Part shown: piece after piece, positions 44,876-45,676 of the stretch
How the letters are laid out: each line of letters starts with the position of its first letter
How positions within the stretch are numbered: position 1 is the stretch's first letter
Virus record (IMG/VR): IMGVR_UViG_2721755676_000001
DNA length: 64,000 bases
DNA from: a virus
Taxonomy: Duplodnaviria; Heunggongvirae; Uroviricota; Caudoviricetes
Reading direction: 5' to 3' (one strand)
The notes under the pieces: model-generated
What the model was told of the DNA's origin: nothing
The model's database searches: none
The model's input: the letters and a program-made list of their open reading frames with translations, nothing else
Translations under genes and position numbers: made by a program

Positions 44876-45676
44876 ATGAAGAATGGGGTGAATAAAAAAT
44901 ACTCATTAGCATTGTTAATAGCGGCTTTACTATTAACAGGTTGTGATTCTGATGAAGAGCGAGCCATAAATCTAGTTGAAAAGGATATTCGCTCTACACT
45001 GCTAGATCCTGATGCTGGTCGGTTCACGAATATGCGAGCTATTCAGTTAGGTGAAAATAGCTATTCATATATGGTGTGTGGAGAGGTGAATGGCAAAAAC
45101 GTCTTGAACGCCTATACAGGTGCGACCGCATTCAATGCACACATCTTTGATGTTCGTGAACGTAACCCGATTGTATTCGTTACAATGGATAAAAGTACCA
45201 ACTCGGCAAGAGAACGATTACGTTTTGAACGCCAAAATCTAGCATGTAAAGAAAATGGTGTGAAACTTTATCTGGAAAACGAATCTAAAATCAGGAAGGA
45301 AAAAGAGAAAATAGATGATTTAAAAAAAACTCCATTAGGTCAGGCTGTGTTTGATGCTGCAAGTGATTCTACATATGTGAGTAGAGAGTTGGGCGAATCG
45401 AGAGGTGTTAGTGAAGTGTATGCAAGAGAAAATGATAAATATGCTCTTGTTAGCGTCACCAATTATGACACTCCTGACTTTTACAAATTTAGGAAAAAAG
45501 ACAACGGTGAATTAGAACCTGTTAGAGGGCTGTCTTATACCGGCTATCCATTCGCAGTTGCGCTGTGTCATTCTGAACAAACAGATTATGACAAATGCAT
45601 AACAGAAGAAGAAATCAGGTTGCTTCGAGACGAAAAGAATAAGCTCGACGATTTTGTCGTACCACCAGAAGAATAA
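44876..45676 (+). CDS. Lipoprotein (266 aa)
   Basis: Signal peptide with lipobox LLTGC (MKNGVNKKYSLALLIAALLLTGCDSD). Confidence 0.65.
   Translation: MKNGVNKKYSLALLIAALLLTGCDSDEERAINLVEKDIRSTLLDPDAGRFTNMRAIQLGENSYSYMVCGEVNGKNVLNAYTGATAFNAHIFDVRERNPIVFVTMDKSTNSARERLRFERQNLACKENGVKLYLENESKIRKEKEKIDDLKKTPLGQAVFDAASDSTYVSRELGESRGVSEVYARENDKYALVSVTNYDTPDFYKFRKKDNGELEPVRGLSYTGYPFAVALCHSEQTDYDKCITEEEIRLLRDEKNKLDDFVVPPEE

What the first reader, a model, noticed from the sequence alone, without database searches (positions are those of the whole stretch)
44876..45676. Phage-plasmid-encoded lipoprotein, candidate superinfection exclusion factor
Clear lipobox (LLTGC) with a 240-aa mature domain in the accessory island. 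Phage lipoproteins such as T5 Llp or Cor block the receptor used by the phage.
Basis: partly seen in the sequence, partly recalled or inferred. Interest (0 to 1): 0.45.

Follow-up and report, generated by a model that had tools for sequence, protein, structure and literature searches.

The report
Prophage-expressed periplasmic lipoprotein cassette
This is a real lipoprotein gene on an SSU5-like E. coli phage-plasmid, and it is one of several interchangeable exported-protein cassettes at a single site; it is transcribed in lysogens and probably alters the cell envelope, but it is unrelated to the T5 Llp or Cor receptor blockers and its function is untested.

Summary
ORF 44876-45676 (+) encodes a 266-aa protein with a canonical lipobox (LLTG|C23). 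It is the only one of 235 window ORFs of at least 60 aa that fits the PROSITE-type lipoprotein rule.

The gene is under purifying selection (dN/dS 0.07-0.13). The element is an SSU5/pHCM2-like phage-plasmid.

The protein has two domains:
- **N-module (aa ~24-148):** belongs to a large exported-protein family with no Pfam model (2,237 cluster representatives). Nine of ten sampled members are phage morons.
- **C-domain (aa 149-266):** found only in this ortholog group.

The gene occupies a cargo slot between an FljA-like gene and a helicase operon. In 83 related loci the slot holds exactly one of three exported-protein families, or is empty.

Published RNA-seq for the 98.5%-identical Cyrano ortholog shows transcription in lysogens while virion genes stay silent. 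Virion-less E. albertii derivatives keep the gene intact.

The Llp/Cor analogy fails:
- There is no sequence or fold homology.
- The protein is about four times larger than Llp.
- The gene lies far from the tail-fibre genes.
- It does not co-vary with the J or tail-fibre alleles.
- Asp at +2 predicts inner-membrane retention.

Best guess, unproven: a lysogenic-conversion factor acting in the periplasm, possibly excluding other phages at an entry step.

The parts
44876..45676 (+). Lipoprotein CDS, 266 aa plus stop. The start may instead be GTG 44888.
   Evidence: Full-length match to phrog_20234, E 2.8e-187. Purifying selection.
44876..44944 (+). Signal peptide II with lipobox LLTG|C23, followed by Asp24 at position +2.
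   Evidence: Direct reading of the sequence. Meets the PS51257-type rule, as 1 of 235 ORFs. Lipobox invariant in orthologs.
44945..45319 (+). N-module (aa 24-148): one helix packed on a 4-stranded sheet, plus two long helices. Conserved D44-P45..F50 and C68-G69-x-V-N72-x-K74-N75..G78-x-Y80-x-G82. Cys68 and Cys124 form a probable disulfide.
45320..45673 (+). C-terminal domain (aa 149-266): helices plus a 4-5-stranded sheet, with conserved Cys231 and Cys241. Restricted to this ortholog group.
44774..44875 (.). 102-bp divergent intergenic region shared with the FljA-like gene; presumed promoters. Conserved between the E. coli, Enterobacter and Salmonella elements.
   Evidence: alignment. One search found no canonical 16-18-nt-spaced sigma-70 site here. 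By eye, TTGGTC-N15-TATGAT is a candidate (inference).
44255..44773 (-). Divergent neighbour: FljA-family protein (repressor of phase-1 flagellin). This is a backbone gene and forms one edge of the cargo slot.
   Evidence: PF03614, E 1.3e-68. Present in nearly all related loci. Co-varies in expression with the lipoprotein in Cyrano.
45735..45772 (.). Strong hairpin (13 bp with an 11-12-nt loop; a longer stem in the MFE fold) between the convergent 3' ends of the lipoprotein gene and the 199-aa gene. Possibly a terminator, but the T-tract is weak.
   Evidence: z = -3.8. The terminator scan did not call it.
46062..46661 (-). 199-aa cytoplasmic ORF (phrog_13473, function unknown). A frequent but not obligatory co-cargo in the slot.
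   Evidence: Absent from the Cronobacter loci that carry the lipoprotein. Frameshifted in the E. albertii plasmid.
46694..46972 (-). 92-aa backbone gene (phrog_1466) immediately upstream of the DEAD/UvsW-like helicase gene (46975-48534, same operon, minus strand). It forms the other edge of the cargo slot.

Best explanation
**Shown**
- The gene encodes a genuine bacterial lipoprotein. The signal peptide would be cleaved before Cys23, leaving a 244-aa mature protein.
- The mature protein has two folded domains and four conserved cysteines (68/124 and 231/241), as expected for an oxidised periplasmic protein.
- The N-module belongs to a very large, unnamed family of exported proteins that are mostly encoded by temperate phages as morons. 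The C-domain is unique to this ortholog group.
- The gene is one allele of a polymorphic cargo slot in SSU5-like phage-plasmids. The slot carries exactly one exported protein from three unrelated families, or nothing.
- The gene is transcribed in the prophage state. It stays intact in derivatives that have lost all virion genes.

**Inferred**
- In E. coli the Asp at +2 should keep the protein on the periplasmic face of the inner membrane.
- It is therefore a lysogenic-conversion factor acting in the periplasm. The most likely role is to block a post-adsorption step of infection by other phages, such as peptidoglycan penetration or DNA transit.
- That would be functionally akin to T4 Sp, P1 Sim, HK97 gp15 or TP-J34 Ltp, rather than to the Llp/Cor mechanism of masking the phage's own outer-membrane receptor.
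- The near-invariant beta2-beta3 hairpin motif (CGxVNxKNxxGxYxG) is conserved from Pseudomonas and Comamonas to the enterobacteria. This suggests the N-module binds a conserved envelope component rather than a variable receptor.
For: **Lipoprotein and real gene:**

**Element identity:**

**Family:** 2,237 representatives match the N-module only. There is no Pfam or NCBIfam model.

**Contexts of N-module relatives** (9 of 10 sampled are phage loci):
- the same slot in another SSU5-like element;
- a Mu-like head module;
- a siphophage tail module;
- the second gene after a CI-type S24 repressor, in two prophages;
- an immunity-side operon;
- between tail genes K and I in phages Fraca and AUS531phi;
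- between ogr and int in the P2-like phage SEN5.

**Fusions** to SPOR, peptidoglycan-binding and PDZ domains place the module in the periplasm, near the peptidoglycan.

**Slot census**, 83 complete slots:

| Slot content | Loci |
|---|---|
| SSU5_122-type lipoprotein | 43 |
| Window-type two-domain lipoprotein | 13 |
| 118-aa secreted N-module protein | 7 |
| 197-aa secreted protein | 13 |
| Empty | 7 |

No slot holds two exported families.

**Expression** of CYRAN_115 (98.5% identical), as log2(fpkm+5): about 4.8 in stationary LB, 8.0-9.4 in the B1/B6 cultures and inside macrophages. Capsid and tail genes stay at about 3-5 (PMC9928086, S1 Table).

**Retention after decay:** in E. albertii p2014C-4015-1 (63.8 kb) there are no terminase, portal, capsid or tail genes, the helicase is truncated and the 199-aa gene is frameshifted. 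The lipoprotein (266 aa) and the FljA-like gene are intact. Four similar 62-kb plasmids appear.
Against: - No phenotype exists for any member of the family; exclusion is inferred from context only.
- PADLOC has no match.
- Orthologs in Cronobacter and other elements have Lys at +2, which predicts outer-membrane sorting. The membrane of residence is therefore not conserved, which weakens any localisation-based argument.
- The gene fell below the authors' 5x moron cutoff in stationary LB (2.9x background).
- Its rise in culture medium and in macrophages fits a host-fitness role equally well.
- One sampled family member is chromosomal and not phage-borne.
- One copy is frameshifted (L026), so the gene is dispensable.
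- The slot census loci are not dereplicated.
Confidence: 0.4

Rival explanations
1. Host-fitness or virulence moron unrelated to phages. Like lambda Bor or TraT, this envelope lipoprotein would improve the lysogen's survival in the gut or inside macrophages (envelope stress, serum, bile, acid) and would be kept for that reason.
For: - The ortholog is about 16-20-fold higher in the B1/B6 cultures and in macrophages than in stationary LB.
- The carrier strain LF82 is an adherent-invasive E. coli.
- The gene is retained, together with the FljA-like gene, in virion-less E. albertii plasmids that also acquired hdeAB.
- It is paired with a predicted flagellin repressor, another surface-related or immune-related function.
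Against: - Most Cyrano non-structural genes rise in the same conditions, so the increase may reflect growth phase.
- N-module relatives occur in phages of very different hosts and niches, often inside tail or head modules or in repressor operons. That pattern points to a phage-centred function.
- There is no homology to Bor, TraT or any named virulence lipoprotein.
Confidence: 0.3
2. Periplasmic inhibitor or immunity protein. The cystatin-like modules would bind and neutralise an incoming or endogenous envelope-degrading enzyme, such as a lysozyme or lytic transglycosylase, a T6SS or bacteriocin peptidoglycan hydrolase, or a protease. The lysogen would be protected without targeting phages specifically.
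For: - The tandem two-domain layout recalls latexin and multicystatins.
- The conserved hairpin loop sits in the topological position of the cystatin L1 loop (inference).
- Relatives are fused to SPOR or peptidoglycan-binding domains.
- There is a weak hit to the BSAP-5i immunity family for ortholog P0009, E 0.012.
Against: - No cystatin QxVxG motif is present (direct reading of the sequence).
- No effector or toxin gene lies next to the gene.
- The BSAP-5i hit is far below that family's cutoff.
Confidence: 0.15
3. One reading: an Llp/Cor-type factor that binds the periplasmic face of the outer-membrane receptor used by this phage, thereby excluding the cognate phage and protecting its progeny.
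For: - It is a phage-encoded lipoprotein with internal disulfide-capable cysteines.
- The Cronobacter-type orthologs have an outer-membrane-type +2 residue.
Against: - No sequence similarity: Cor PHROG E 0.35, signal peptide only.
- No Llp or Cor entries among the fold matches.
- 244 aa in two domains, against about 7 kDa for Llp.
- Not adjacent to the receptor-binding protein genes.
- J C-terminal alleles 99-100% identical to Cyrano's occur with this lipoprotein (L024, L026), with the unrelated SSU5_122-type lipoprotein (L017, L018, L022, L028, L037, L086) and with non-lipoprotein cargo (L016, L020, L023).
- The lipoprotein also occurs with a 78%-identical J allele (L027).
- The tail-fibre C-terminus is 98% identical in L024 (lipoprotein) and 97% in L023 (no lipoprotein).
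- Asp at +2 predicts inner-membrane retention in E. coli.
- The SSU5 receptor is LPS core.
Confidence: 0.08
4. A function in the phage's own lytic cycle, for example a spanin-like or lysis-timing component, or a factor acting on virion release.
For: - Some N-module relatives sit inside late structural operons.
- There is a weak Rz-like spanin PHROG hit, E 0.02.
Against: - The spanin hit covers only the signal peptide (aa 11-38).
- Cyrano has its own holin, endolysin, Rz and Rz1 cassette elsewhere.
- The gene is transcribed while lytic genes are silent.
- It is retained in virion-less plasmids.
- It is absent from most SSU5-like elements.
Confidence: 0.05

Closest known systems
T5 Llp / Cor family (phi80, N15, HK022, T1) superinfection-exclusion lipoproteins
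   Same: Both are phage-encoded, Sec-exported, acylated on an N-terminal Cys and contain a disulfide. Both are candidates for excluding other phages.
   Different: - No sequence or fold relationship.
- About 4x larger, with two domains.
- Not linked to the receptor-binding protein gene or its alleles.
- Predicted inner-membrane rather than outer-membrane anchoring in E. coli.
- Llp/Cor act on FhuA, and no such target is indicated here (features taken from bioRxiv 10.64898/2026.03.26.714494).
Periplasmic or inner-membrane entry blockers: T4 Sp and Imm, P1 Sim, HK97 gp15, P22 SieA, S. thermophilus TP-J34 Ltp, Vibrio K139 Glo
   Same: - The predicted location is the same: periplasmic space or the outer face of the cytoplasmic membrane.
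- They share prophage or early expression.
- N-module relatives sit in repressor operons exactly as glo does in K139, whose lysogenic operon is cI-orf2-glo-int.
   Different: - No homology to Glo (hhalign probability 5.6%; BLASTP E 1.3).
- The other proteins were not tested here by sequence; the resemblance is positional and conceptual only.
- No injection-block phenotype is known for this protein.
phrog_20234 / phrog_2320 (PHROGs families of unknown function) and the unnamed 'DPxSAxF...CGxVNxKNxxGxYxG' exported-protein family
   Same: - Full-length match to phrog_20234, E 2.8e-187.
- N-module match to phrog_2320, E 1.4e-19.
- Shares all near-invariant residues with the family.
   Different: Most members are single-module proteins of 105-145 aa. 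This one carries an extra 118-aa C-terminal domain, seen only in the SSU5-like slot orthologs.
SSU5_122-type lipoprotein (weak DUF2846 similarity) of phage SSU5, Y. pestis pMT1-like and many Klebsiella/Salmonella/E. coli phage-plasmids
   Same: It occupies the same slot between the FljA-like gene and the 92-aa/helicase operon. It is also a lipoprotein. The two are mutually exclusive.
   Different: The sequences are unrelated. It is 140 aa and is usually on the opposite strand.
Cystatin / latexin / NTF2-like (VirB8-like) alpha+beta roll proteins
   Different: - Sequence identity is 3-15%.
- There is no cystatin inhibitory motif.
- The Foldseek PDB search gave no hit with E<1e-3.
- This is a fold-level resemblance only.

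Membership tests
Bacterial lipoprotein (Lgt/LspA substrate; PROSITE PS51257 rule) | Positively charged n-region, uncharged hydrophobic h-region, and a lipobox [LVI][ASTVI][GAS]C with the Cys at residues 15-35 | tested here: met
   MKNGVNKKYSLALLIAALLLTG|C23. It is the only 1 of 235 window ORFs of at least 60 aa that fits the rule.
Bacterial lipoprotein (Lgt/LspA substrate; PROSITE PS51257 rule) | Lipobox conserved in orthologs | tested here: met
   L20, G22 and C23 are invariant in 8 sequences down to 40% identity. The same holds in all slot orthologs.
Bacterial lipoprotein (Lgt/LspA substrate; PROSITE PS51257 rule) | Actual diacylglyceryl modification and globomycin-sensitive processing | not testable with these tools
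   Needs labelling or a globomycin experiment.
Llp/Cor superinfection-exclusion lipoproteins | Sequence or profile similarity to Cor or Llp | tested here: not met
   phrog_1119 (Cor) scores E 0.35 over aa 8-26, the signal peptide only. No Llp family appears at E<=1.
Llp/Cor superinfection-exclusion lipoproteins | Small (about 7 kDa) single beta-rich domain sharing the Llp/Cor fold | tested here: not met
Llp/Cor superinfection-exclusion lipoproteins | Gene adjacent to, and co-segregating with, the receptor-binding protein gene | tested here: not met
   In Cyrano the lipoprotein is at 101.4 kb and J and the tail fibre at 17.7-26.5 kb. The same J and tail-fibre alleles occur with different slot cargo, and the same cargo with different alleles.
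Llp/Cor superinfection-exclusion lipoproteins | [quoted passage not shown] | tested here: inconclusive
   The +2 residue is Asp in the E. coli, Salmonella and Enterobacter forms (Lol-avoidance signal; established +2 rule) but Lys in the Cronobacter and other forms. This is a prediction only.
Llp/Cor superinfection-exclusion lipoproteins | Binds and inactivates FhuA or another TonB-dependent receptor | not testable with these tools
   Needs binding or plating assays.
Unnamed phage-moron exported-protein family (phrog_2320-like N-module) | Signal peptide (type I or II), a DPxSAxF segment, a CGxVNxKNxxGxYxG hairpin, and a second conserved Cys about 50 residues downstream | tested here: met
   phrog_2320, E 1.4e-19. 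2,237 representatives match. D44, P45, F50, C68, G69, N72, K74, N75, G78, Y80, G82 and the second Cys are at least 90% conserved in 40 diverse members.
phrog_20234 | Full-length profile match | tested here: met
   E 2.8e-187, residues 1-266 against profile 1-266 of 266. The family has no annotated function.
Cystatin-type protease inhibitors | Cystatin fold | tested here: inconclusive
Cystatin-type protease inhibitors | QxVxG inhibitory loop motif | tested here: not met
   The sequence contains no QxVxG. The closest is Q156-A-V-F-D (direct reading).
o-spanin (Rz1-like) | Small outer-membrane lipoprotein encoded in or next to the i-spanin gene in the lysis cassette | tested here: not met
   The phrog_6073 hit (E 0.02) covers only aa 11-38. 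Cyrano carries a separate Rz/Rz1 pair next to holin and endolysin.
Vibrio phage K139 Glo periplasmic exclusion protein | Sequence or profile similarity | tested here: not met
   hhalign probability 5.6% (signal peptide only); BLASTP E 1.3.
Catalogued anti-phage defence systems (PADLOC-DB 2.0) | Match to any model | tested here: not met
   No family at E<=1 for the protein or for 7 relatives.

The most novel reading that the evidence does not exclude
The N-module defines a new, very widespread family of phage-encoded periplasmic proteins: 2,237 clusters at 50% identity, with no Pfam model and no solved structure. Through its invariant CGxVNxKNxxGxYxG hairpin, the module would bind a conserved envelope component and block a post-adsorption step of phage entry.

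SSU5-like phage-plasmids would then carry a 'one exported protein per slot' locus, next to an FljA-like flagellin repressor, where three unrelated exclusion cassettes are swapped like immunity alleles. The window's two-domain lipoprotein would be a specificity-extended version of that module.
Probability: 0.25. Interest if true: 0.65.

Novelty: new variant of a known kind. Interest (0 to 1): 0.4.

Why it matters
SSU5/pHCM2/pMT1-like phage-plasmids are common in E. coli, Klebsiella, Salmonella and Yersinia; about 760 plasmids share this neighbourhood.

If the slot really holds interchangeable envelope-modifying or exclusion cassettes, three things follow:
- It would help explain compatibility and competition among these elements, and between them and therapeutic phages.
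- It would give a function to a large family of phage-moron exported proteins that currently has no Pfam model, no structure and no phenotype.
- The experiment is simple: clone one small gene and plate a phage panel.

If the gene instead turns out to be a host-fitness factor, it is still a prophage gene strongly transcribed inside macrophages in an adherent-invasive E. coli.

Tried and rejected
- **Family libraries:** Pfam, NCBIfam and PADLOC scans of the protein and its relatives gave nothing above threshold.
- **Solved structures by sequence:** PDB searches with the full-length, N-module and C-domain profiles gave nothing.
- **Fold searches:** Foldseek against PDB gave no hit with E<1e-3. 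The BFVD search (3 hits at E<=1e-3) returned nothing functionally informative; the meaningful matches were small uncharacterised phage (lipo)proteins. The afdb50 library was unavailable.
- **C-domain as a diverged duplicate of the N-module:** rejected (hhalign probability 0.2%).
- **C-domain elsewhere in other architectures:** none found.
- **Homology to K139 Glo:** rejected.
- **Conserved partner gene next to N-module genes in repressor operons:** the neighbours are unrelated to each other.
- **Llp/Cor-style linkage to the J or tail-fibre alleles:** not found.
- **Spanin role:** rejected.
- **Canonical sigma-70 promoter or intrinsic terminator flanking the gene:** the scan found none at the expected places. 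Only a hairpin with a weak T-tract was seen.
- **Genome-contig scan with the helicase:** only 6 loci, so the census rests mainly on IMG/VR loci.
- **Literature:** searches found no study of this protein or its family.
- **Source-given names of relatives:** all 'hypothetical', apart from the generic labels 'SPOR domain-containing protein', 'Secreted protein' and one JGI 'peptidoglycan hydrolase-like protein with peptidoglycan-binding domain'.
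Full report
**1. Observation**

The ORF at 44876-45676 (+) is present exactly as described. 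It encodes 266 aa starting MKNGVNKKYSLALLIAALLLTG|CDSDEE.

The N-terminus satisfies every clause of the PROSITE PS51257-type lipoprotein rule. In a six-frame scan it is the only one of 235 window ORFs of at least 60 aa that does so. The lipobox is invariant in eight orthologs down to 40% identity.

Pairwise dN/dS against the syntenic Enterobacter and Salmonella orthologs is 0.13 and 0.07, so this is a functional coding gene.

Orthologs begin at MNKKY, with a GGAGGG Shine-Dalgarno sequence. That start aligns with GTG 44888 in the window. The start codon is therefore ambiguous, but the mature protein (C23-E266, 244 aa) is not.

**2. The element and the locus**

The region is 93-99% identical to Escherichia phages PhiR41_1 and Cyrano (pLF82) and to many non-mobilizable plasmids of about 110 kb. 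In all, 763 plasmids from Klebsiella, Escherichia, Enterobacter, Yersinia, Salmonella and other genera share parts of the neighbourhood. This is the SSU5/pHCM2-like phage-plasmid group.

By tblastn, the lipoprotein itself is found in only 60 plasmids, including one partial N-module-only match (Klebsiella, 25% of the query), and in two phage records.

The gene lies in a 35-39% GC patch within a 45-52% GC backbone. It is transcribed divergently from a strong FljA-family gene (PF03614, E 1.3e-68). It converges on a 199-aa ORF of unknown function. Beyond that lie a 92-aa gene and a DEAD/UvsW-like helicase gene.

**3. The protein**

No Pfam, NCBIfam or PADLOC model matches. PHROGs gives a full-length hit to phrog_20234 and an N-terminal hit (aa 7-151) to phrog_2320, both of unknown function.

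A full HMMER scan of 1.84 billion cluster representatives with the ortholog profile found 2,237 hits at E<=1e-3. Only three were full-length or near full-length. Nearly all the others are proteins of 105-145 aa that match only the N-terminal 80-140 profile positions.

An alignment of 40 diverse members shows these near-invariant residues: D44, P45, F50, C68, G69, N72, K74, N75, G78, Y80, G82 and a second Cys.

The C-terminal 118 residues have no detectable relatives outside the ortholog group. They are not a diverged copy of the N-module.

The AlphaFold2 model is confident (pLDDT 82.9, pTM 0.72). It shows:
- an N-domain of one helix on four strands, followed by long helices;
- a C-domain of helices plus a 4-5-stranded sheet.

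Four conserved cysteines besides the lipidated one (68/124 and 231/241) fit an oxidised periplasmic protein.

The +2 residue is Asp in the E. coli, Salmonella and Enterobacter forms. By the established +2 rule (background knowledge, not tested here) this predicts inner-membrane retention. The Cronobacter and more distant forms have Lys.

**4. Context of relatives**

The N-module family is overwhelmingly phage-borne. Nine of ten sampled contexts are phage loci.

| Member | Context |
|---|---|
| P0010 (145 aa, N-module only) | The same slot in another SSU5-like element, divergent from its Flag1_repress gene |
| P0042 | Between portal and Mu-F in a Mu-like phage |
| P0187 | Just upstream of the tape-measure gene in a Comamonas siphophage |
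| P0181, P0060 | Second gene downstream of a CI-type S24 repressor, opposite Cro or early genes |
| P0198 | A similar immunity-side operon |
| Fraca, AUS531phi homologs | Between tail genes K and I |
| SEN5 (P2-like) homolog | Between ogr and int |
| P0201 | Chromosomal, non-phage |

Some relatives are fused to SPOR, peptidoglycan-binding or PDZ domains.

**5. The slot is a polymorphic exported-protein site**

Using the conserved helicase as an anchor, I fetched 86 related loci. I then delimited the slot between the 92-aa gene and the FljA-like gene.

| Slot content | Loci (of 83 complete slots) |
|---|---|
| SSU5_122-type lipoprotein, about 140 aa (weak DUF2846 similarity) | 43 |
| Window-type two-domain lipoprotein | 13 |
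| 118/119-aa Sec-secreted single N-module protein | 7 |
| Unrelated 197-aa Sec-secreted protein | 13 |
| Empty (107-141 bp) | 7 |

No slot carries two exported families. Backbones with 98-100% identical helicases carry different cassettes, so turnover is fast. One window-type copy is frameshifted (L026).

Caveat: the loci are not dereplicated.

**6. Expression and retention**

Published RNA-seq of E. coli LF82 is available in PMC9928086, S1 Table. For CYRAN_115, which is 98.5% identical to the window protein, the log2(fpkm+5) values are:

| Condition | Replicate 1 | Replicate 2 |
|---|---|---|
| Stationary LB | 4.98 | 4.68 |
| B1 | 7.87 | 8.17 |
| B6 | 9.21 | 9.15 |
| Macrophages, 1 h | 9.43 | 9.24 |
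| Macrophages, 6 h | 8.67 | 8.78 |

The stationary-LB value is 2.9x the Cyrano median, below the authors' 5x moron cutoff. Capsid, tail and lysis genes remain at about 3-5 in all conditions. The divergent FljA-like gene co-varies.

The paper defines BLB and MB6 explicitly. I infer that B1 and B6 are bacteria alone in the infection medium.

In E. albertii p2014C-4015-1 (63.8 kb) there are no terminase, portal, capsid or tail homologs. The helicase is truncated and the 199-aa gene is frameshifted. The lipoprotein and the FljA-like gene are nevertheless intact. Four similar 62-kb plasmids carry the gene.

**7. Test of the Llp/Cor analogy**

The defining features of Llp/Cor were taken from bioRxiv 10.64898/2026.03.26.714494: about 7 kDa, outer-membrane inner leaflet, a gene abutting the receptor-binding protein gene, binding to FhuA, and a shared fold. 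None of the testable features is met.

I cross-referenced IMG/VR contig names between the helicase loci, the Cyrano J C-terminus and the tail-fibre C-terminus:
- J alleles 99-100% identical to Cyrano's occur with the window-type lipoprotein (L024, L026), with the SSU5_122-type lipoprotein (L017, L018, L022, L028, L037, L086) and with non-lipoprotein cargo (L016, L020, L023).
- The window-type lipoprotein also occurs with a 78%-identical J allele (L027).
- The tail-fibre C-terminus is 98% identical in L024 (lipoprotein) and 97% in L023 (no lipoprotein).

SSU5 itself uses LPS core as its receptor.

**8. Interpretation**

Shown: this is an exported lipoprotein. It belongs to a phage-moron family. 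It is a swappable cassette, it is transcribed in lysogens, and it is retained after the virion genes are lost.

Inferred: it is a lysogenic-conversion factor working in the periplasm. I favour exclusion of other phages at a post-adsorption step (confidence about 0.4) because of the repressor-operon and structural-module positions of its relatives and the allele-like cassette polymorphism.

The invariant hairpin motif across distant hosts suggests a conserved envelope target. This would resemble T4 Sp, P1 Sim or TP-J34 Ltp more than Llp or Cor.

The rivals are:
- a host-fitness or virulence role (0.3);
- a periplasmic enzyme inhibitor or immunity protein (0.15);
- the original Llp/Cor model (0.08);
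- a lytic-cycle role (0.05).

No member of the family has a phenotype, so all functional statements remain hypotheses.

**9. Verdict**

The gene is real and was correctly spotted. The receptor-blocker analogy is not supported. The protein is a two-domain variant of an uncharacterised but very widespread family of phage-moron exported proteins, sitting in a polymorphic cassette site.

Interest is moderate. The finding is cheap to test and potentially informative for phage-plasmid ecology, but so far it is only an annotated 'putative membrane lipoprotein' of unknown function.

Noticed in passing
window 44255-44773 (-): The SSU5-like backbone encodes a strong FljA-family protein (repressor of phase-1 flagellin; PF03614, E 1.3e-68), conserved in nearly all related loci. 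In Cyrano it is co-expressed with the lipoprotein. A phage-plasmid that silences host flagellin could affect motility, immune recognition or flagellotropic phages.
   Followed up: partly
slot between window 44773 and 46694; loci L002, L009-L094: The slot is a hotspot carrying mutually exclusive exported-protein cassettes: an SSU5_122-type lipoprotein of 140 aa (43 loci), N-module proteins (20), a 197-aa secreted protein (13), or nothing (7). Yersinia pestis pMT1-like (L011) and SSU5 carry the 140-aa type.
   Followed up: yes
NZ_CP034165.1 (L264/L265) and four 62-kb E. albertii plasmids listed: These are decayed, virion-less SSU5-like plasmids with IS insertions and an hdeAB acid-chaperone insert. 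They keep the lipoprotein and the FljA-like gene intact, while the adjacent helicase is truncated and the 199-aa gene is frameshifted.
   Followed up: partly
L026 (IMGVR_UViG_2529293139_000001), slot region: One copy of the window-type lipoprotein gene is split by a frameshift into 153-aa and 109-aa ORFs, so the gene is dispensable for the element.
   Followed up: no
window 3902-5425 (+): A 507-aa ORF with RVT_1 and group II intron maturase (GIIM) domains. This is probably a group II intron reverse transcriptase inserted in the phage-plasmid. PADLOC also gives generic RT/DRT-like hits.
   Followed up: partly
window 6-3023 (+): A 1005-aa ORF with HSDR_N, SWI2/SNF2, ResIII and T1R_D3 domains and PADLOC REase_I hits. 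It resembles a type I restriction R subunit. Cognate M and S genes were not looked for.
   Followed up: partly
window 34736-36898 (+): A full-length methionyl-tRNA synthetase gene on the phage-plasmid (tRNA-synt_1g, E 5e-166), as also annotated in Cyrano (CYRAN_100).
   Followed up: no
window 45735-45772: A strong GC-rich hairpin (z = -3.8 against shuffles) between the convergent lipoprotein and 199-aa genes. The T-tract is weak and the terminator scan did not call it.
   Followed up: partly
L261 6594-6998 and L262 7370-7942: In two unrelated prophages, the N-module gene sits next to a further, unrelated lipoprotein gene in the repressor-side operon. This suggests clusters of envelope morons.
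   Followed up: no
window 46694-46972 (-); CYRAN_117: The 92-aa gene upstream of the helicase is one of the most highly transcribed Cyrano genes in lysogens (12x background; listed as a moron in PMC9928086). Yet it diverges much faster than the helicase (57% against 92% aa identity between genera).
   Followed up: no
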